A stretch of 64,000 nucleotides of DNA. Origin: Alphaproteobacteria bacterium. GTDB lineage: Bacteria > Pseudomonadota > Alphaproteobacteria > MPNO01 > UBA830. The position numbers were made by a program, and so were the translations under genes. Every line of letters starts with the position of its first letter. Within the stretch, counting starts at the first letter, position 1. The notes under the pieces are model-generated. The model did not search any database and had not been told where the DNA came from. It saw only the letters and a list, made by a program, of their open reading frames with translations. The DNA is taken from NCBI GenBank assembly GCA_965243135.1, contig OZ251539.1, positions 896,001-960,000 on the forward strand, written 5' to 3'. Positions 30,527 to 64,000 of this stretch are shown here, one piece after another.

Positions 30527-32059
30527 ATGACGAGACGCATGCTTCCGACCGGCATGTCCTCCCTCCGGACGATCCGGGGGCTGGAGTGCTACTACGTCGA
30601 CAAGACGGACCATGTGCGCCGCCTCGTCGAGAGAGGCAGGTACTATTTCCTGTCGCGTCCGCGCCGGTTCGGCAAGACCCTTCTGGTGGACACGCTGCAG
30701 GAACTGTTCGAGGGAAGCGAGGAGCTGTTTCGCGATCTCGCCATACACGGCAGGTGGGACTGGTCGGCGCGCCATCCTGTCGTGCGGATCAGCTTCGGCG
30801 GCGGCAATTTCGACTCCCCGGACTTCGTTCGGAGAAGCGTGGAAGCGCAGCTGGCGGCGGCGGAGAGGCGCGCCGGCGTCGAACCGAGCGCTGCCGAGGC
30901 GTCGAACCGTTTCGGGGAATTGATCGAGGCCCTGCACGAGCGCACCGGACGGCAGGCGGTCGTGCTGGTCGACGAATACGACAAGCCGATCCTGGACGCG
31001 CTCGGCGACCGGGAACTGGCGCTGGCGAACCGCAACTTCCTGCGCGGCTTCTACGCGATGATCAAGGACAACGACAGGCATCTCCGTTTCGTTTTCCTGA
31101 CGGGGGTGAGCAAGTTTTCGCATGCGGGCCTGTTCTCGGGCCTGAACAACCTGCGCGACATCACCCTCGATCCGCGTTTCGGCGCCATCTGCGGCTACAC
31201 CGACGACGAGTTGGACGCGGTCTTCGCCCCGGAACTCGAGGGCCTGGACCGGGACAAGATCCGCCGCTGGTACAACGGCTACAACTGGCGCGGTCCGGAG
31301 AGGGTCTACAACCCGTTCGACATCCTCCTTCTCTTCGAAACGCGCGAGTTCGAGGCGCACTGGTTCCAGACCGGCACGCCGACCTTCCTCGCCGACCTTC
31401 TGGCGCGGCGCCGGGTCGCGGCGCCGGCCTTGGAGGGCGCGGTCGCGAACGCCACGCTGCTGTCGGCCCTCGACGTCGACCGCATTCCCGTCGAGACGCT
31501 TTTGTTCCAGACCGGCTATCTGACCATCGCCGACGAGAAGCGGGACGACGACGCGCGCCTCTACCGGCTGGACTACCCGAACCAGGAGGTGAGGCGCAGC
31601 CTGAACGAGCTCCTGCTGCAGACGATGGCGCCGGACGTCGCGGTCGCGGCGGAGAGCCAGGAGCTGCGACGCCTGATGCGGACGAACGACTTCGCGGGCC
31701 TCGAGCGGCAGTTCCGGGCGTTGCTGGCGAGCATCCCGAACGAGTGGTACGCGAACACGGGCCTGGCGGGGGCGCACTACGCGAGCGTGCTCTACTCGCA
31801 CTTCGTGGCGGCGGGGATGGACGTCCGCGCGGAGGAGAGCACGGCGCGCGGCCGCTCGGACCTGACGGTCCTGTACGACGGCGGCGTCTACCTGTTCGAG
31901 TTCAAGGTCGTGGACGGGAAGCCGGAAGGCCGGGCACTGGCGCAGATTCGGGAGCGCGGCTACGCGGACAAGTACCGGCGTCCGGGCGTGCCGGTCCACC
32001 TGATCGAGTTCGGCCGGGAGGAGCGCAACATCGTCGGGTTCGAATTCGAGACCGCCTGA
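30527..32059 (+). CDS. AAA-ATPase-like / PD-(D/E)XK nuclease protein, copy 1
   Basis: YYVDKT, SRPRRFGKT, LVDEYDKP, GRSDL..FEFK, ALAQIRERGY. Confidence 0.9.
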   Translation: MTRRMLPTGMSSLRTIRGLECYYVDKTDHVRRLVERGRYYFLSRPRRFGKTLLVDTLQELFEGSEELFRDLAIHGRWDWSARHPVVRISFGGGNFDSPDFVRRSVEAQLAAAERRAGVEPSAAEASNRFGELIEALHERTGRQAVVLVDEYDKPILDALGDRELALANRNFLRGFYAMIKDNDRHLRFVFLTGVSKFSHAGLFSGLNNLRDITLDPRFGAICGYTDDELDAVFAPELEGLDRDKIRRWYNGYNWRGPERVYNPFDILLLFETREFEAHWFQTGTPTFLADLLARRRVAAPALEGAVANATLLSALDVDRIPVETLLFQTGYLTIADEKRDDDARLYRLDYPNQEVRRSLNELLLQTMAPDVAVAAESQELRRLMRTNDFAGLERQFRALLASIPNEWYANTGLAGAHYASVLYSHFVAAGMDVRAEESTARGRSDLTVLYDGGVYLFEFKVVDGKPEGRALAQIRERGYADKYRRPGVPVHLIEFGREERNIVGFEFETA

Positions 32060-33310: not shown

Positions 33311-34849
33311 ATGGCGAAACGCATGCTTCCGATCGGCTTTTCCTCCCTCCGGGAGATCCGGGGGATGGACTGCTACTACGTCGACAAGACGGAGCATGCG
33401 CGCCGCCTCGTCGAGAGGGGCAAGTACTATTTCCTGTCGCGTCCGCGCCGGTTCGGCAAGACCCTGCTGGTGGACACGCTGCAGGAGCTGTTCGAGGGAA
33501 GCGAAGAACTGTTCCGGGGCCTCGCCGTGCACGACGGGTGGGACTGGTCGGGACGCCATCCGGTCGTGCGGATCAGCTTCGGCGGGGGCAATTTCGACTC
33601 CCCGGATCTCGTTCGGAGAAACGTGGAACGGCAGCTGGCGGCGACGGAGAGGCGCGCTGGCCTCGAACCGGGCTCCGACGAGGCGTCGAACCGTTTCGGG
33701 GAATTGATCGAAGCCTTGCACGAGCGCACCGGGCAGCGGGCGGTCGTTCTGGTGGACGAATACGACAAGCCGATCCTGGACGCGCTCGGCGACCGGGAAC
33801 TGGCGCTGGCCAACCGCGACTTCCTGCGCGGCTTCTACGCGATGATCAAGGACAACGACAAGCATCTCCGTTTCGTTTTCCTGACGGGGGTAAGCAAGTT
33901 CTCGCAGGCGGGCCTGTTCTCGGGCCTGAACAACCTGCGCGACATCACGCTGGCGCCGGAGTTCTCGGACATTTGCGGCTACACGGACGACGAACTGGAC
34001 GCGGTCTTCGCCTCCGAACTCGAGGGCCTGGACCGGGACAAGATCCGCCGCTGGTACAACGGCTACAACTGGCGCGGGCCGGAGAGGCTCTACAATCCGT
34101 TCGGCATCCTGCTGCTGCTCGCCGAGCGCAGGTTCGGCAACTACTGGTTCTTGAGCGGCACGCCGACCTTCCTGGTCGAGACGCTGTCGCGGCGCCAGGT
34201 CTCGGCGCCGGCCCTGGAGGGCATGTTCGCGGACGACGACCTGCTGTCGGCGATCGACGTCGACCGCATCCCCGTCGAGGCTTTGCTGTTCCAGACCGGC
34301 TACCTGACCATCGCCGGCGAAGAACCGGACGAGGACGCGCCCCTCTACCGGCTGGACTACCCGAACCATGAGGTGAAGCGCAGCCTGAACGCGCTCCTGC
34401 TGGAGGCGATGGCGCCGGACGTCGCGGTCGCGGCGGAGAGCCGGGAGTTGCGCCGCCTGATGAGGACGAACGACTTCGCGGGACTCGAGCGGCGGTTCCG
34501 GGCGTTCCTGGCGAGCATCCCGAACGAGTGGTACGCGAACACGGGCATGGCGGGGGCCCACTACGCGAGCGTGTTCTACTCGCACTTCGCGGCGGCGGGG
34601 ATGGACGTCCGCGCGGAGGAGAGCACGGCGCGCGGCCGCTCGGACCTGGCGGTTCTGCACGGCGGCGGCGTCTACCTGTTCGAGTTCAAGGTCGCGGACG
34701 GGAAGCCGGAAGGCCGGGCGCTGGCGCAGATACGGGAACGCGGCTACGCGGACAAGTACCGGCGTCCGGGCGTGCCGATCCACCTGATCGGCATCGAGTT
34801 CGGCCGGGAGGAGCGCAACATCGTCGGGTTCGAGTTCGAGACCGTCTAA
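33311..34849 (+). CDS. AAA-ATPase-like / PD-(D/E)XK nuclease protein, copy 2
   Basis: Same motifs as copy 1; close paralog. Confidence 0.9.
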   Translation: MAKRMLPIGFSSLREIRGMDCYYVDKTEHARRLVERGKYYFLSRPRRFGKTLLVDTLQELFEGSEELFRGLAVHDGWDWSGRHPVVRISFGGGNFDSPDLVRRNVERQLAATERRAGLEPGSDEASNRFGELIEALHERTGQRAVVLVDEYDKPILDALGDRELALANRDFLRGFYAMIKDNDKHLRFVFLTGVSKFSQAGLFSGLNNLRDITLAPEFSDICGYTDDELDAVFASELEGLDRDKIRRWYNGYNWRGPERLYNPFGILLLLAERRFGNYWFLSGTPTFLVETLSRRQVSAPALEGMFADDDLLSAIDVDRIPVEALLFQTGYLTIAGEEPDEDAPLYRLDYPNHEVKRSLNALLLEAMAPDVAVAAESRELRRLMRTNDFAGLERRFRAFLASIPNEWYANTGMAGAHYASVFYSHFAAAGMDVRAEESTARGRSDLAVLHGGGVYLFEFKVADGKPEGRALAQIRERGYADKYRRPGVPIHLIGIEFGREERNIVGFEFETV

Positions 34850-58803: not shown

Positions 58804-59853
58804 CTACAGGGCGATTCGCGGCTGCGTCCTTGCGGTGCGGATGCCGCAGGTCCGGTGACGGAACGCCGGCGGGCGCGGCCGGATTTCCTCGTTCTGCAGC
58901 CACAGCCGCCAGAGATGGCGGGGGCGTCCAGGCCGGTCCTCGTAAGCGGTCCGAGAATGCATGGTGACGTGGCTATTGAGTATCTGAACGTCGCCGACCT
59001 TGAAGCTCATGGACAGGTGCAGCTCTTCGTTGATTTCGCCCATCAGGGCGAAAGCCGCCTTTTGCGCCGCGCTCAGCGGCGGATTTCCGGGCAGCGCATG
59101 TCCCTTCTCGATATGCTTTCTGCCCCCTGCGGTCGTGAGATACCCGTCGACGTAGTTGAAGATCGCGGCCTTGTACCAAGGAGCTTCGCCGGGGCCGACT
59201 TCGCCGTGCCGCGTCCAGTACATTTCCCGCGCCAGTTCCGCGGCCAGATCCGGCCTGCGGCGGACCATCTCGTTATGGACCGCGGCCGCGCTGACGATCT
59301 TCGATTGCCCGCCCGATTTGGCGGTTTCGAGGCAAAGCAGCGATACGACGTCGCACTGGTCCGTGTGGAACAGCATATGGGCGCTGGTCTGGTAGCCCCG
59401 GTGCTTCGGATTGTCGTAATCCTTGCCGAGGTCGATGACGCTGCCGATCATGTCGCCTTCGGGATTGTTCGACAACGGCCGCCCGATTCGCAGTCCCATC
59501 GCCCAATAGGCGACGGCGAGGTCGAGACGGTCCCATTCCCGCACCGGCATGCCGCGGATGAGTTGGAAGCCGCATCCGTCCCTGATCCGATGGAAGACTT
59601 CGTCCATTGCGCCGGCGAATGGGCCGAGGTCGAACGACGCGGGGTCGGCTCTCAGAATGCCGTTCGGGTCGTCGCCGATTTCCCTGCGCGCCCGCGCCGC
59701 GGTCTCGGCGAGCGCCGCCAGCTCTTCCTCGGTCAGAACGCGCAGCCAGTCCGTCCGCTTCGCGATTTCGGCTCCGGTCCAGACGGCCGGATCGGCGACC
59801 GGCTTTCCCGGCTCGGCCGGTTCGCGAAGAACGGTTGGCGCTTTGTCGAGCAT
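58804..59853 (-). CDS. TauD/TfdA family dioxygenase
   Basis: FHTD, HSRT, RHLWRLW. Confidence 0.85.
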   Translation of the reverse strand: MLDKAPTVLREPAEPGKPVADPAVWTGAEIAKRTDWLRVLTEEELAALAETAARARREIGDDPNGILRADPASFDLGPFAGAMDEVFHRIRDGCGFQLIRGMPVREWDRLDLAVAYWAMGLRIGRPLSNNPEGDMIGSVIDLGKDYDNPKHRGYQTSAHMLFHTDQCDVVSLLCLETAKSGGQSKIVSAAAVHNEMVRRRPDLAAELAREMYWTRHGEVGPGEAPWYKAAIFNYVDGYLTTAGGRKHIEKGHALPGNPPLSAAQKAAFALMGEINEELHLSMSFKVGDVQILNSHVTMHSRTAYEDRPGRPRHLWRLWLQNEEIRPRPPAFRHRTCGIRTARTQPRIAL

Positions 59854-59949
59854 GCGCCCATTCTACGCGGAGTCGGCGAGAAGATCCATTCGTGCGCGGT
59901 GCCGGTTCCGCCCTGCGCGGGCGCGTCCTGCGGAACTGTCGGCCGGGTT

Positions 59950-60484
59950 TCATTCGACGCGGATGACGAGCTCGCTGCGAACGTGACCCGTTTCGCTCAG
60001 ACGATAGGTTTCGACGGCGCGGTCCAGCGCGAACGTTGCGCCGACCGTCGGGCGCACCGCGCCTTCCTCGAGCAGCGCCGCGATACGCTTCGTTCCCGCG
60101 CATTCGTAAGCGACCGGCGGCGTCGAAATGCGAATGTCCTCGCGCCGGGGGCTGTCGGGAACGGGCGCGGCATTGAGGCCGACCAGCGGGACGCCGGGTT
60201 TGAGTGCGCTTTGCGAGCGCAGGAGAACGTCGCCGCGGGCCGTGACGACGTCGAGATCCGAAACCGCGTCGCGGAAATCCGCGGCTGCGTAGACCGCGGC
60301 CAGCTCCGCACGGCTGCCCCAGCGGGTTGGAGGGCAGACGCCGAACACCTCGTCCCCGACCGCGAATTCCGGCGCGTTCGATCCCGTTCCGACGACGATT
60401 CCCGAAAGGTCGCGTCCTGGAACGTCGAGGAAGTCGAGTTCGAAACGCCCGCGCATGAGTTCGTTCCGCACCTTCCAGTCGATC
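59950..60484 (-). pseudogene. NADP-dependent quinone-oxidoreductase (MDR) family, C-terminal part
   Basis: IDWKVR..PGRDLSG.V...VGDEVFG; internally deleted; N-terminus lies at 63058-63182. Confidence 0.8.
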
Positions 60485-61216
60485 GTAAGCGTTCGGCCGC
60501 GGGGTGACCTGTCCGTTCCGCCTGCAGTCCCGGTGCAGGGCAGGCTCCCGTTGACTTTGCGTTGCATTTCCGGGGTTCCTGTTTCCTCAGGCTTTCGCGA
60601 GTCTCCCAAGCCACGGCTTCGAGCGAGCCCTGAAGGTTCGGCGGCGGAAGCCCGCCTCGCTCGACCGAACGAGCGGAACGTTCCCGTCCGACGGAACCGT
60701 TGCCTGAAGTTCAGGCGTTTCGCCGCTTACGGCGTATGTCGTCATGCGCACCGCCCCTGCCGTCGCCTCGAGGACAGAGCCTGGCAGCCTCCCTCGACCA
60801 GCCTCTCGCCCTGGCGCAAACGTCTCTCCTTTGACGATCGGTGCCGCGGGTCTCCGGAACCGTCTCCGGAAAGGACGCTTATGACCGCCTTCGAGATCGC
60901 CAACCTCGCCATCGCTTCCGCCGCCGTGGCCGTCGTCGCGGCCGTCGTCGCGGCCGTCGGCGTATGGCGTCCGCGCCAACGACGAACGCGGGCAACAACA
61001 GCGCGCGGCCACGCAGCAGCGCGAAGCCGAAGAATGCCGCCACGAGGAGAACATGACGGCGCTCAAGGCGCCGATAGCCGGCTTCGAACGCCAGACCGCC
61101 GCGCTGTAAACCGTCGTCGAACGAACGGCGTCCGGACCCGCGACGTCATGACCGCTTTCGCCAGCATCGCCGCAGGAAGGCCTCGCGACGGCCTGGCAAA
61201 GCCGACTGACGGCGGT

Positions 61217-62761
61217 TCAGACGGTCTCGAACCTGAAATCCACGATGTTGCGCTCCTCCCGGCCGAACTCGATGCCGATCAGGTGGACCGGCACGCCCGG
61301 ACGCCGGTACTTGTCCGCGTAGCCGCGCTCCCGAATCTGCGCCAGCGCCCGGCCTTCCGGCTTCCCGTCCGCGACCTTGAACTCGAACAGGTAGACGCCG
61401 CCGTCGTACAGGACCGCCAGGTCCGAGCGGCCGCGCGCCGTGCTCTCCTCCGCGCGGACGTCCATCCCCGCCGCCACGAAGTGCGAGTAGAACACGCTGG
61501 CATAGTGCGCCTCGTAGCCGGCTATGCCCGTGTTCGCGTACCACTCGTTCGGGACGCTCGCCAGGAACGCCCGGAACAGCCGTTCGAGACCTGCGAAGTC
61601 GTTCGTCCGCATCAGGCGGCGCAACTCCCGGCTCTCTGCCGCGACCGCGACGCCCGGCGCCATCGCCTCCAGCAGGAGCGCGTTCAGGCTGCGCTTCACC
61701 TCCCGGTTCGGGTAGTCCAGCCGGTAGAGGGGCGCGTCCTCGTCCCGCTTCTCGTCGGCGATGGTCAGGTAGCCGGTCTGGAACAGCAGCGCCTCGACGG
61801 GAATGCGGTCGACGTCGACGGCCGACAGCAGGTCGTCGTCCGCGAACATGCCCTCCAGGGCCGGCGCCGAGACCCGGCGCCGCGCCAGAAGGTCGGCGAG
61901 GAAGGTCGGCGTGCCGCTCTGGAACCAGTACGGGCGGAACTCGCGCCGCCGAAACAGCAGCAGCAGGCCGAACGGGTTGTAGACCCTCTCCGGCCCGCGC
62001 CAGTTGTAGCCGTTGTACCAGCGGCGGACCTCGTCCCGGTCCAGACCCTCGAGTTCCGGGGCGAAGACCGCGTCCAACTCGTCGTCCGTGTAGCCGCAAA
62101 TGTCCGAGAACTCCGGCTCCAGCGTGACGTCGATCAGGTTGTTCAGGCCCGAGAAAATGCCCGCATGCGAGAACTTGCTCACCCCCGTCAGGAAAACGAA
62201 ACGCAACTGCTCGTCGCAGTCCTTGATCGCCCCGTACAGGCTGCGCAGGAAATCGCGGTTGGCCCGCGCCAGTTCCCGGTCGCCGAGCGCGTCCAGGATC
62301 GGCTTGTCGTATTCGTCGACCAGAACGACCACCTGCCGCCCGGTGCGCTCGTGCAGGGCCTCGATCAATTCCCCGAAACGGTTCGACGCCTCGACGGGAT
62401 CCGGTTCGAGGCCGGCGCGCCTCTCCGCTGCCGCCAGCTGCCTTTCCACGGTTATCCGAACCCCGTCAGGGACGACGAAATTGCCCCTGCCGAAGCTGAG
62501 CCGCACGACCGGATGGCGCGCCGACCAGTCCCACTCGTCGTGTACGGCGAGGCCCCGGAACAGCTCCTCGCTTCCCTCGAACAGCTTCTGCAGCGTGTCC
62601 ACCAGGAGGGTCTTGCCGAACCGGCGCGGACGCGACAGGAAATAGTACTTGCCCTTCTCGACGAGGCGGCGCACATGGTCCGTCTTGTCGACGTAGTAGC
62701 AGTCCCTCGTCCGGATTTCCCGGAGGGAAGTCATCCCGATCGGAAGCATGCGTCTTTCCAT
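61217..62761 (-). CDS. AAA-ATPase-like / PD-(D/E)XK nuclease protein, copy 4
   Basis: Same motifs; preceded by TTGACC-18 bp-TATTCT-6 bp-ATG. Confidence 0.9.
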   Translation of the reverse strand: MERRMLPIGMTSLREIRTRDCYYVDKTDHVRRLVEKGKYYFLSRPRRFGKTLLVDTLQKLFEGSEELFRGLAVHDEWDWSARHPVVRLSFGRGNFVVPDGVRITVERQLAAAERRAGLEPDPVEASNRFGELIEALHERTGRQVVVLVDEYDKPILDALGDRELARANRDFLRSLYGAIKDCDEQLRFVFLTGVSKFSHAGIFSGLNNLIDVTLEPEFSDICGYTDDELDAVFAPELEGLDRDEVRRWYNGYNWRGPERVYNPFGLLLLFRRREFRPYWFQSGTPTFLADLLARRRVSAPALEGMFADDDLLSAVDVDRIPVEALLFQTGYLTIADEKRDEDAPLYRLDYPNREVKRSLNALLLEAMAPGVAVAAESRELRRLMRTNDFAGLERLFRAFLASVPNEWYANTGIAGYEAHYASVFYSHFVAAGMDVRAEESTARGRSDLAVLYDGGVYLFEFKVADGKPEGRALAQIRERGYADKYRRPGVPVHLIGIEFGREERNIVDFRFETV

Positions 62762-62818
62762 TCGGCAAGAATAGGCCGCCGCAACGGAAACGGTCAAATT
62801 TATTTCAGACCTGAGGCA

Positions 62819-62872
62819 TGTTAGCAACGGATGATATGTCCCCCTGTCCGGATTTGGAACGCTTCCGGACCA
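62819..62872. repeat. Diverged inverted copy of the IS left-end repeat
   Basis: TGTTAGCAACGGATGATATGTCC...GGAACGCTTCCGGACC followed by QGLRKFE transposase-start remnant. Confidence 0.7.
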
Positions 62873-63057
62873 AGGAGATCGGCGACAGGGACTGAGGAAG
62901 TTCGAAACGGACGCACCCGTCAGGGTTCGCTCGAAGCCATGGGCGGCTCGCGAAAGCGAAACAAGAAACCCGGAAATGCAACGCAAAATCAGCGTATCCT
63001 GCCTTGCACCGGGATTGGAGGCGGAACAAGCAGGTCACCCCGCGACCGAACGCTTAC

Positions 63058-63182
63058 AGTCGATCGGATTCACGCTGGCGGCGCGCGCCTTTACAAGCAC
63101 GTCGTCCGGCCCCGGCTCGGGGTCCGGCAGGTCCGCGAGACGCGCCGAGACCGCCGTAGGCGTCGTAAACAAGGGCTTTCAT
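63058..63182 (-). pseudogene. MDR oxidoreductase N-terminal part
   Basis: MKALVYDAYGG / LPDPEPGPDDVLVKARAASVNPID, continues as DWKVR at 60484. Confidence 0.8.
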
Positions 63183-63216
63183 GCCGGATTCTCCCTGCGC
63201 CCGGGAAACGCCGATC

Positions 63217-63681
63217 TCACCAGTAACCCGCCATCAGTTCTCCGGCCCATTCCGGCTCCTCGACCTCGCTGCGCGGCGCGAAGCCCGTCATGTAGGGCTT
63301 GATGTCGATGACCGGCGTGCCGTCGACCGCGTCGAGGCCCCGCACGCGCAGCCTGCGGTCCGAGACGCCGAGAATCTCGCAGGTCGTCACGCCGACGAGG
63401 TTGGGGCGGTTCTTCCCGCGTTGCGCGAAGATGCCGACGAGCGGCCATTCCGGGTTGTTGCGGGGATGCCGGGCCCCCCATTCTATGGTTTCGGGATCGA
63501 CCTTGTCGAAGTGAAACACGACGACCGCGTGGGAAAACTGATCGAGGCTCGCCAGGGCCTCGGGTCCCAGCCTTTCGTCGAGCTCGATATACGCTTCGAT
63601 CGCCCCCCAGTCGTCGTTGACGACCTCGGCGCGTCCGCCGCGCACGGTTCCGACGGCTTCCAGTTCGATCTTCATGCCCAT
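63217..63681 (-). CDS. TrmO/TsaA-like SAM-binding protein
   Basis: GIFAQRGKNRPN, GLDAVDGTPVIDIKPY. Confidence 0.88.
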   Translation of the reverse strand: MGMKIELEAVGTVRGGRAEVVNDDWGAIEAYIELDERLGPEALASLDQFSHAVVVFHFDKVDPETIEWGARHPRNNPEWPLVGIFAQRGKNRPNLVGVTTCEILGVSDRRLRVRGLDAVDGTPVIDIKPYMTGFAPRSEVEEPEWAGELMAGYW

Positions 63682-63684
63682 GCT

Positions 63685-64000
63685 TCAATTCTCCGGTTCG
63701 GGTGGCAGTTCGATGCCGAAATGCCTTCGCAGCAGGTCGTCGATCAGGTCGAAGCACGAGCCGTAGCGGATCACCGTCATGTCGCCGACGTCGATCATGG
63801 TGGAAGACCGGCCGTAACGGTTCCAGCGCATCAGGCCGTAATCCAGAACGATGTCCGCCGTTTGGATGATTTCGGGTTCGATGTCTCCGGCGCGGAACTT
63901 GACGCCGCGCAGGGAGACGTTGGCCGAAGAGCCGATGACGAGCCGGTTGTCCGCGAAAGCGATCCGGGCAAGCGTATCCATCACGGGACCGGCGTTGAGC
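63685..64000 (-). CDS. Sua5/YrdC-like protein, C-terminal part (5' end beyond window)
   Basis: GSSANVS, SSTMID, VIRYG motifs. Confidence 0.6.
   Translation of the reverse strand, partial: LNAGPVMDTLARIAFADNRLVIGSSANVSLRGVKFRAGDIEPEIIQTADIVLDYGLMRWNRYGRSSTMIDVGDMTVIRYGSCFDLIDDLLRRHFGIELPPEPEN

What the first reader, a model, noticed from the sequence alone, without database searches (positions are those of the whole stretch)
60477..63065. Transposase-free element with IS66-type ends and long inverted arms carrying an AAA-ATPase/PD-(D/E)XK nuclease gene
Seen: 60485 and 63057 begin with inverted GTAAGCGTTCGG(C/T)CGCGGGGTGACCTG. Imperfect inverted similarity continues about 140 bp (approx. 60485-60633 vs 62920-63057). 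An 8-bp duplication AGTCGATC flanks it. Removing the element rejoins ...AASVNPID|WKVR... of an MDR oxidoreductase. The cargo is an intact nuclease-ATPase gene with its own promoter and a decayed small ORF; there is no tnpA/B/C. Known: IS66 elements have GTAA ends and 8-bp TSDs, but much shorter IRs. Inference: a non-autonomous cargo transposon, perhaps built from two MITE-like arms, mobilised in trans and helping spread this gene family.
Basis: partly seen in the sequence, partly recalled or inferred. Interest (0 to 1): 0.85.

Follow-up and report, generated by a model that had tools for sequence, protein, structure and literature searches.

The report
Transposase-less IS66-ended cassette carrying DUF1703
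A 2.6-kb piece of DNA with insertion-sequence ends but no transposase of its own has jumped as one unit into an already decaying gene, carrying one copy of an ATPase-nuclease gene that this sponge-associated bacterium holds in about 170 copies.

Summary
Window 60485-63057 (2573 bp) has IS66-type ends (26 of 27 terminal bases alike, inverted). It has 152/141-bp arms that are 81% alike, and a perfect 8-bp duplication, AGTCGATC. It splits an MDR oxidoreductase exactly at NPID|WKVR. It carries one intact DUF1703 gene (PF09820 + PF08011), a frameshifted small ORF and no transposase.

The genome holds 8 identical 2794-bp IS66 copies whose 22-bp inverted repeats match 21-22 of the cassette's first 24 bases. 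It also holds a 0.7-1.5-kb transposase-less family that shares the cassette's left 650 bp.

My best reading (0.7) is a non-autonomous, MIC-like IS66 derivative that was moved in trans as one unit. Contigs from four studies bridge the junctions, so it is not an assembly artefact.

The target gene also has a frameshift and a deletion of about 80 residues. No second two-ended cargo cassette was found.

The claim that the element spreads the gene family is only partly supported. One of 171 DUF1703 loci is arm-bounded, yet 26 of 52 arm-derived fragments lie beside DUF1703 genes (4.3 expected).

This is a new member of a known kind. The more striking feature is the 171-locus DUF1703 expansion itself.

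The parts
60477..60484 (.). left copy of the 8-bp target-site duplication AGTCGATC
   Evidence: identical to 63058-63065
60485..60636 (+). left arm: an IS66-type terminal inverted repeat (first 27 bp) plus about 125 bp of subterminal sequence
   Evidence: 21 of the first 24 bases match the IRs of the 8-copy IS66; 75% identity over 56-65 bp to the IS end on the DruA-like-ORF side
60485..61130 (+). the 650-bp 'unit', shared at 72-78% identity with the left part of a family of transposase-less IS66-derived elements of 0.74-1.5 kb
   Evidence: family members with their own TSD lie at genome 247803-249281 and 4556273-4557015
60863..61127 (+). decayed small ORF (one TM helix plus a Q/E/R-rich coiled-coil protein), split over two frames and with a stop; intact 167-207-aa versions occur in sister elements
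   Evidence: the intact version has no Pfam family
61217..62761 (-). cargo: an intact DUF1703 gene (N-terminal AAA-ATPase_like, C-terminal PD-(D/E)XK nuclease), 514 aa plus stop; Walker A GKT, Walker B DEYD and D...EFK are visible in the translation
   Evidence: AlphaFold2 model pLDDT 79.7; the fold resembles ORC/Cdc6 and CED-4/Apaf-1 type ATPases
62768..62797 (-). promoter-like TTGACC-18-TATTCT directly upstream of the start codon, conserved across the gene family
62798..62916 (-). upstream spacer; about 90 bp of it (62816-62906) is a short repeat found at some 12 other genome places, 4 of them contiguous with DUF1703 genes
62917..63057 (-). right arm: the same kind of IS66 end as the left arm, inverted
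63058..63065 (.). right copy of the target-site duplication AGTCGATC
59950..60483 (-). C-terminal piece of the interrupted MDR/quinone-oxidoreductase-like gene (ADH_N plus ADH_zinc_N_2), lacking about 80 residues of the nucleotide-binding domain
63059..63182 (-). N-terminal piece of the same gene, with a frameshift between MKALVYDAYGG and ...VSARLADLPDPEPGPDDVLVKARAASVNPID

Best explanation
Window 60485-63057 is a non-autonomous IS66-family element of the mobile-insertion-cassette type. Two copies of the same kind of IS66 end, in inverted orientation, enclose a decayed small ORF and one promoter-bearing DUF1703 ATPase-nuclease gene. It encodes no transposase. An IS66 DDE transposase made elsewhere in the genome bound the conserved terminal 22-27 bp of both arms. 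The best candidate is the 609-aa protein of the 8 identical 2794-bp copies. That enzyme moved the whole 2573-bp unit into an MDR oxidoreductase gene and made the 8-bp staggered cut that became the AGTCGATC duplication. Shown: the anatomy, the unit insertion (TSD plus restored reading frame), the lack of a transposase, the presence of matching autonomous IS66 copies, the presence of sister non-autonomous elements with TSDs, and the reality of both junctions in independent samples. Inferred: that mobilisation was in trans, which transposase did it, and that the cargo travelled with the arms rather than arriving later.
For: Ends, arms and TSD. Frame restoration on 6 of 6 homologues. IS66 nature of the ends: 23 elements with GTAAGCGTTCG-type ends and perfect 8-bp TSDs in this genome, 19 of them 1973-3241 bp. 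The 8 copies of 2794 bp are 100% identical. They encode a protein that hits PF03050 (2.4e-50) and NF033517 (265.5 bits, cut-off 180). Their IR is 22 bp perfect, and the cassette ends match 21 (left) and 22 (right) of the first 24 bases. Print agrees that IS66 IRs are 20-30 bp, start with GTAAGCG and give 8-bp DRs (PMC11946415, passages read; PMC3281130, table passage read). Sister elements without a transposase have TSDs: 1479 bp, 743 bp and 59 bp. Their right part derives from the 5' end of another IS66 subtype. The same genus holds 125-bp MITEs with such ends in G002. The terminal 27 bp are 26/27 alike while the rest of the arms is about 78% alike, as expected if the tips are the transposase binding sites. 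Junctions in Logan contigs: the right junction is bridged in 4 of 4 runs from 4 studies, and the left in 2 of 4 (X1, X4) among the listed pieces. Three one-ended relatives keep the same gene-to-arm arrangements: genome 1463366-1465935, 266577-269945 and 4799520-4801386.
Against: There is only one copy. No second insertion site, no empty site and no other two-ended cargo cassette was found in this genome, in 78 genomes of the order searched by terminus (2 of 78 have the terminus: own and G002) or at 80 homologous loci elsewhere. The arms are only 81% alike, so the element is either old or was built from diverged pieces. The ends differ from the active IS at position 16 (both ends) and position 13 (left end), and whether that transposase accepts them is untested. 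DUF1703 copies behave as compact 1.6-kb modules whose homology stops about 49 bp upstream and 47 bp downstream, even at 92-95% identity. The gene could therefore have entered or been converted in place. The arm-linked DUF1703 copies belong to different subfamilies (72-87% aa identity to the cargo, while its nearest paralogues are 88-89%).
Confidence: 0.7

Rival explanations
1. In-place assembly. A small two-ended non-autonomous IS66 derivative inserted into the oxidoreductase and made the TSD. The DUF1703 module came in later by recombination or gene conversion with another arm-adjacent copy. The cargo therefore never travelled between these two ends.
For: DUF1703 homology between distant copies ends sharply about 49 bp before the start and 47 bp after the stop (122 non-neighbour pairs at 92-95% identity). 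Arm/unit fragments lie beside many DUF1703 genes and could serve as recombination handles (26 of 52). The cassette is a single copy.
Against: A donor with the gene between unit-like and arm-like sequence would itself be such a cassette. Normal family members end in a different (B-type) IS66 end, not in a second arm, and no arm-to-arm empty vehicle was found. One-ended relatives show that the unit-gene linkage has been copied before.
Confidence: 0.15
2. Relic of a passenger-carrying IS66 (tIS66) that lost its transposase gene by internal deletion after it inserted here on its own.
For: IS66 elements with passenger genes are in print (7 of 25 Pseudomonas IS66 members; PMC12888890, passage read). 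The sister non-autonomous family clearly consists of deletion derivatives that keep about 700 bp of the 5' part of an IS66.
Against: The cassette has no remnant of tnpC or of the DruA-like ORF at protein or DNA level beyond the terminal 56-65 bp. Both ends are the same end type rather than an IRL and an IRR with their own subterminal sequences. None of the 19 TSD-flanked IS66-size elements lies within 1.3 kb of a DUF1703 gene.
Confidence: 0.08
3. Artefact: an assembly chimera, or a chance inverted repeat around a resident gene.
For: The gene family is highly repeated, which invites misassembly. Short-read contigs break inside the gene.
Against: Contigs from 4 studies cross the right junction and contigs from 2 cross the left, two of these runs (X1, X4) with no differences on those pieces. 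The 27-mer has 0 chance matches in 100 shuffles. The 8-bp TSD and frame restoration are exact.
Confidence: 0.02

Closest known systems
Mobile insertion cassettes (MICs, e.g. MIC231 of Bacillus cereus; the example is recalled, the concept is cited from a PMC3281130 passage)
   Same: IS-type inverted repeats at both ends, no transposase, one or more passenger genes unrelated to transposition, the parent IS's TSD length, and a parent IS present in the same genome as the presumed helper.
   Different: The parent family is IS66, not IS231/IS4. The arms are about 150 bp because both derive from the same IS end. Trans-mobilisation is untested and only one copy is known. My search for 'IS66' with 'mobile insertion cassette' found 2 papers. 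I read passages of one (PMC3281130), and those passages describe no IS66-derived MIC. The other I saw only as a listing.
tIS66: IS66-family elements with passenger genes (PMC12888890, passage read)
   Same: IS66 ends starting with GTAAGCG, and passenger genes inside the element.
   Different: tIS66 elements keep their transposase genes; this cassette has none.
MITEs and composite elements built from them (e.g. Tn3-derived TIMEs that form mosaic non-autonomous transposons; PMC4133298, seen only as title and start of abstract in a listing)
   Same: Non-autonomous, dependent on a helper transposase. Short IS-end-derived modules can bracket foreign DNA. 59-bp and 125-bp MITEs with these IS66 ends exist in this genome and in G002.
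   Different: At 2573 bp with an intact gene it is not miniature. The left side is a 650-bp piece of a larger non-autonomous element rather than a complete MITE.
DUF1703 gene-family expansion in the Cardinium symbiont cCpun (PMC6387759, passages read)
   Same: The same PF09820 + PF08011 architecture, lineage-specific expansion in a host-associated bacterium, a patchy distribution among relatives, and evidence for recombination among paralogues in that paper.
   Different: The paper reports 25 paralogues at about 39% mean identity. Here there are 171 loci (96 full length, 94 of those open) at 65-89% identity to the cargo, making up 3.6% of the genome. The passages I read mention no link to IS ends. 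I did not open that paper's supplementary files.

Membership tests
IS66 family (as an element) | terminal inverted repeats of about 20-30 bp beginning GTAAGCG | tested here: met
   definition from a PMC11946415 passage
IS66 family (as an element) | 8-bp target-site duplication | tested here: met
   23 of 23 paired elements of this end type in the genome have 8-bp TSDs
IS66 family (as an element) | encodes a DDE_Tnp_IS66 transposase (TnpC) | tested here: not met
   none in the element. It is therefore a derivative, not an IS66 member in its own right.
IS66 family (as an element) | accessory tnpA/tnpB genes of canonical IS66 (recalled as a family feature) | tested here: not met
   PF05717 has 0 matches in the whole genome. 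The local IS66 copies instead carry a DruA/DUF4338-like ORF. tnpA was not searched separately.
Mobile insertion cassette (MIC) | IS-type IRs at both ends, no transposase and at least one passenger gene | tested here: met
Mobile insertion cassette (MIC) | flanked by the TSD typical of the parent IS, showing insertion as a unit | tested here: met
Mobile insertion cassette (MIC) | mobilised in trans by the parent IS transposase | not testable with these tools
   Only the presence of 8 identical IS66 copies with matching IRs is shown.
MITE | small (tens to a few hundred bp) and non-coding | tested here: not met
   2573 bp with an intact 514-aa gene
Composite transposon | two complete IS copies flanking the cargo | tested here: not met
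   The arms are 152 and 141 bp and the unit is 650 bp, with no transposase.
DUF1703 (cargo protein) | N-terminal PF09820 AAA-ATPase_like plus C-terminal PF08011 PDDEXK_9 | tested here: met
   both above the curated cut-offs
Known anti-phage defence proteins (PADLOC models) | match to a model of a described defence system | tested here: not met
   0 PADLOC families for the cargo. Fold resemblance to STAND/ORC-type ATPases, including Avs3 and RdrA, is weak (TM 0.2-0.48).

The most novel reading that the evidence does not exclude
The cassette may be one visible edge of something larger. DUF1703 genes in this sponge-associated bacterium would form a hyper-expanded, diversifying repertoire of STAND-like ATPase-nucleases: 171 loci, omega about 0.4-0.6, and 94 of 96 full-length copies open. 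These genes would propagate as compact promoter-plus-gene modules, either by their own nuclease/ATPase activity or by gene conversion. They would repeatedly become linked to IS66-derived arms, which offer a route for movement within the genome and between co-resident symbionts. Relatives at 55-62% identity occur in many phyla.
Probability: 0.15. Interest if true: 0.8.

Novelty: new member of a known kind. Interest (0 to 1): 0.4.

Why it matters
It is a clean natural example of an IS66-family end pair moving a host-type gene without a transposase of its own. My literature searches did not find this form described for IS66. It also links, at one locus, two features of this genome that are otherwise separate. 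One is an active IS66 population with many decayed non-autonomous derivatives. The other is a very large expansion of the uncharacterised DUF1703 ATPase-nuclease family: 171 loci against 25 in the case in print, which that paper ranks among the largest. If DUF1703 genes prove to be defence or selfish modules, such cassettes would be a concrete vehicle for their exchange. As a transposon type it is not surprising.

Tried and rejected
Structured RNA in the arms: Rfam gave 0 matches at E up to 1 over 60300-63300. The fold of 60590-60760 is no better than shuffles (z -0.32). I dropped this idea.

Empty site in close relatives: no orthologue of the oxidoreductase was found in 4 same-genus genomes (best 35-39% identity). 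Only homologues from other genera of the same family could be used.

Unit or arm in relatives: the 656-bp unit gave only short GC-rich matches in 30 relatives, with 18 or fewer candidates scored per genome.

Terminus in metagenome contigs: 0 exact matches. I did not use the second scan that was allowed.

GTAAGCG-type paired ends around DUF1703 homologues elsewhere: 0 of 80 loci.

Simple enrichment of 23-mer termini near DUF1703: 11 of 74 have a locus within 2.5 kb inward, against 11.6% of the genome lying that close. This is not clearly enriched, unlike the unit-derived fragments.

Small ORF between the upstream 'seg' repeat and DUF1703 genes: not found in 11 copies examined out of about 14 with 'seg' upstream.

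PDB by sequence for the cargo: 0 matches. PADLOC and NCBIfam for the cargo: 0 families.

RNA evidence: no RNA holder was listed. Among the 15 joints shown, none skips the element; 19 more were not shown. The parts of the left junction not bridged by listed pieces in X5 and X8 say nothing.

Supplementary files of the papers were not opened. Those of PMC6387759 (copy numbers, recombination tables) may bear on the comparison of family sizes.
Full report
WHAT IS THERE. The window is G000:C1:896001-960000 of a 6.10-Mb single-contig genome with 65% G+C. At 60485 and, inverted, at 63057 the sequence begins GTAAGCGTTCGG(C/T)CGCGGGGTGACCTG. The 27-mer occurs exactly twice in the window, against none in 100 shuffles. 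The inverted similarity runs on over 60485-60636 against 62917-63057, with 123 identities in 152 alignment columns (81%, E 2e-38, and for the ungapped pieces). The first 27 bases are 26/27 alike and the rest about 78%. AGTCGATC flanks the element on both sides, at 60477-60484 and 63058-63065.

INSIDE THE ELEMENT. Inside lies one intact 514-aa gene on the minus strand (61220-62761, stop at 61217-61219). It has PF09820 AAA-ATPase_like (1.3e-61) and PF08011 PDDEXK_9 (3.1e-19), which is the DUF1703 architecture (PMC6387759, passages read). Walker A (GKT), Walker B (DEYD) and a D...EFK nuclease motif are visible in the translation. A sigma-70-like TTGACC-18-TATTCT sits just before the start. It aligns with a TTGACGG-N17-TACTCT stretch that is conserved in nearly all 96 full-length paralogues. 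Between the left arm and the gene lies the remnant of a small ORF for a one-helix, Q/E/R-rich protein. Here it is split over two frames and carries a stop; it is intact at 167-207 aa in sister elements.

NO TRANSPOSASE. None of the 34 PF03050 matches of the genome falls in the element. PF05717 (TnpB_IS66) has no match anywhere in the genome. tblastn with the local IS66 transposase and its partner ORF finds nothing in the element. 0 of 8 further ORFs hit any Pfam family.

THE TARGET. On the minus strand the right flank reads ...VKARAASVNPID and the left flank IDWKVRNELMRGRF.... The left piece has ADH_N and ADH_zinc_N_2. I compared the pieces with six homologues from other genera of the same family (50-66% identity). 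In all six the N-terminal piece ends, and the C-terminal piece begins, at the same two residues. Removing the element and one TSD copy therefore restores the frame in 6 of 6.

The gene is not otherwise intact. MKALVYDAYGG and the following ...VSARLADLPDPEP... match consecutive residues of the homologues but lie in different frames. About 80 residues of the nucleotide-binding domain are missing (homologue positions about 130-210). No orthologue was found in the 4 same-genus genomes searched (best 35-39%), so a true empty site could not be shown. Searches used a wrong frame for this piece and are void.

THE ENDS ARE IS66 ENDS, AND HELPERS ARE PRESENT. In the whole genome, 23 pairs of GTAAGCGTTCG-type ends in inverted orientation carry perfect 8-bp duplications. 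Nineteen are 1973-3241 bp, one is the cassette, and three are small (1479, 743 and 59 bp). Eight copies of 2794 bp are identical base for base. They encode a 609-aa protein that hits PF03050 (2.4e-50) and the NCBIfam IS66 transposase equivalog (265.5 bits, cut-off 180). They also encode a 309-aa ORF with a DruA/DUF4338 domain (4.7e-43). Their inverted repeat is 22 bp perfect, and the cassette's ends match 21 (left) and 22 (right) of the first 24 bases.

Beyond the tip, both arms resemble the IS end on the DruA-like-ORF side (74-75% over 56-65 bp). The long arms therefore arise because the same kind of end is used twice. Print agrees on the family traits: IRs of 20-30 bp starting with GTAAGCG and 8-bp direct repeats (PMC11946415, passages; PMC3281130, table passage with IS66 members of 2731-2829 bp).

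A FAMILY OF NON-AUTONOMOUS RELATIVES. The left 650 bp of the cassette (60485-61130) recur at about 20 places at 72-78% identity. In the longer copies they continue into about 700 bp derived from the left end and the 5' part of the transposase gene of a second IS66 subtype. These copies end in that subtype's IR. Two such elements have their own TSDs (GACCGAAG, 1479 bp; CCCGGCCG, 743 bp), as does a 59-bp mini element (GGATGCTC). Four others have both ends but no matching flanks. A same-genus genome (G002) has 125-bp MITEs with these ends. In the order, 2 of 78 genomes searched have the terminus: the window's own genome and G002. Decay of this IS66 lineage into transposase-less derivatives is therefore routine here.

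IS IT REAL? Logan contigs of four runs from four studies were laid on 59900-63700. The right junction is crossed in 4 of 4 runs: X1 and X4 without any difference on those pieces, X5 and X8 with 11 differences each. The left junction is crossed in 2 of 4 (X1, X4) among the listed pieces. X1 may be the source sample. Several holder runs are labelled sponge metagenome. An assembly chimera is excluded. The insertion is shared by variants that differ by 1-3% in the flanks, so it is not very recent. That fits the decay of the target gene and of the small ORF.

HOW IT MOST LIKELY WORKS. The exact 8-bp duplication and the restored frame show that the whole 2573 bp entered in one event, bounded by two IS66 ends. 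The element has no transposase, so the enzyme must have come from another copy. I infer the usual DDE reaction: binding to the conserved tips and a staggered 8-bp cut of the target. This is the logic of mobile insertion cassettes (concept from a PMC3281130 passage; the Bacillus example is recalled). I give it 0.7.

The main rival (0.15) is that a small vehicle inserted first and the gene was recombined in later. DUF1703 copies do behave as compact modules (see below). However, a suitable donor would itself be such a cassette, and no empty arm-to-arm vehicle exists in the genome. A decayed passenger-carrying IS66 (tIS66; PMC12888890, passage) is less likely (0.08). No transposase remnant is left and both ends are the same end type.

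DOES IT SPREAD THE GENE FAMILY? The cargo belongs to a very large family. tblastn gives 234 HSPs in 171 loci. Of these, 96 are full-length single HSPs, and 94 of those are open. Together they cover 219 kb, or 3.6% of the genome. Many stand in tandem arrays. Among relatives the family is patchy. In the same genus I found 23 matches, 9 matches that are mostly fragments, 1 and 0. Of the 26 other relatives searched, 25 gave 0 and one gave 9. The case in print has 25 paralogues and is ranked by its authors among the largest (PMC6387759, passages).

Only 1 of the 171 loci is inside a two-ended cassette, and 0 of 80 homologous loci from other phyla have GTAAGCG-type paired ends. Yet the arm/unit sequence is clearly tied to the family. 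Of 52 unit-derived places other than the cassette, 26 lie within 1.3 kb of a DUF1703 locus, against 4.3 expected. None of 5000 circular shifts reaches 26. By contrast, 0 of 19 IS66-size elements lie that close.

Three one-ended relatives keep the cassette's arrangements:
- gene plus unit plus IR at genome 1463366-1465935 (86% and 78% identity);
- unit plus gene at 266577-269382;
- IR plus arm plus gene at 4799520-4801386.

The linked genes belong to different subfamilies, so the association either arose more than once or has been overwritten by conversion. The vehicle idea therefore holds for a minority of copies at most.

THE CARGO PROTEIN. There is no PDB relative by sequence and no PADLOC or NCBIfam model. 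An AlphaFold2 model built from 27 sequences has mean pLDDT 79.7 and pTM 0.72. Foldseek places the ATPase part with ORC/Cdc6, CED-4/Apaf-1, archaeal AAA+ ATPases, Avs3 and RdrA, and the C-terminus with PD-(D/E)XK domains of CidB (E 5.5e-5 to 5e-3, TM 0.2-0.48). That is a resemblance in fold, not membership.

Against its nearest paralogues the cargo has dS 0.15-0.18 and dN/dS 0.4-0.6. It is maintained, but under relaxed or partly diversifying selection. Relatives at 55-62% identity occur in MAGs of many phyla (582 of 589 candidate stretches confirmed, the best 80 kept).

AN UNEXPLAINED POINT. Between non-neighbouring copies at 92-95% DNA identity (122 pairs), homology extends a median of only 49 bp upstream and 47 bp downstream of the gene. 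Neutral flanks at dS of about 0.15 should still be recognisable. Either gene conversion keeps the coding parts alike, or the promoter-plus-gene module is itself the unit that moves. One subfamily of about 8-10 copies shares a longer unit that starts sharply about 690 bp upstream.

VERDICT. The interpretation as a non-autonomous IS66-derived cargo element is well supported in anatomy but untested in mechanism. Its role in spreading the family is minor or historical. It is a new member of a known kind (a MIC-like element of the IS66 family).

Noticed in passing
whole genome G000; in the window e.g. 30527-32053 (+) and 33311-34846 (+): The DUF1703 (PF09820 + PF08011) family has 171 loci: 96 full length (94 of them open) and the rest fragments. 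They cover 3.6% of the genome, often in tandem arrays. The family is patchy among relatives (23, 9 mostly fragments, 1 and 0 matches in the same genus).
   Followed up: partly
genome-wide; the flanks of the 96 full-length DUF1703 copies: Homology between distant copies stops about 40-50 bp upstream (just before a conserved TTGACGG-N17-TACTCT promoter) and about 5-50 bp after the stop, even at 92-95% identity. Whether this reflects gene conversion or a mobile 1.6-kb module is undecided.
   Followed up: partly
L058:4723-7516 (genome 1467522-1470315) and 7 identical copies: The IS66 elements of this genome carry the transposase plus a 309-aa DruA/DUF4338-like ORF, and the genome has no TnpB_IS66. 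A search for papers holding both DUF4338 and IS66 found none.
   Followed up: partly
same 2794-bp IS66 copies, about 164 bp from the end on the transposase side: A third, internal copy of the terminal repeat (AACCGAACGCTTAC) lies 164 bp inside one end of every copy. The 2868-bp variant has a similar copy 144 bp inside one end.
   Followed up: no
window 60613-60749 and about 40 genome places (e.g. genome 17838-18026, 269818-269945): A roughly 135-200-bp conserved stretch ('seg', ...GACGCTCTCGTTCGACGGAACCGTTGCCTGACGTTCAGGCGTTTCGCCGCTTGCGGCG...) occurs both inside the non-autonomous IS66 derivatives and 400-550 bp upstream of about 14 DUF1703 genes that lack the IS tip. It has no Rfam match and no unusual fold.
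   Followed up: partly
genome 2761274-2763650 and about 8-10 similar places: One DUF1703 subfamily repeats as a longer unit of 2.3-2.45 kb. Its 5' boundary is sharp, about 690 bp upstream of the start, next to a small palindrome (CTTCAAGTTTGAAG).
   Followed up: no
L059:399-1022 (genome 248098-248721) and sister elements: The small ORF of the non-autonomous elements encodes a one-helix protein with a variable number of QQQREAEERRHEEAME-like repeats. The copies differ in repeat number, and the protein has no Pfam family.
   Followed up: partly
L143/L145 (G002:C2:689186-689310) and two more places in G002: A same-genus genome has 125-bp MITEs with the same IS66-type ends.
   Followed up: no
L063-L142: DUF1703 relatives at 55-62% identity occur in MAGs labelled Vicinamibacterales, Latescibacterota, Gammaproteobacteria, Spirochaetia, Binatia, Gemmatimonadota and others. 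Such high identity across phyla hints at horizontal transfer.
   Followed up: no
window 58804-59853 (-) and 63217-63681 (-): The neighbours of the insertion are ordinary chromosomal genes: a TauD/TfdA-family dioxygenase and a TrmO-like tRNA methyltransferase.
   Followed up: yes
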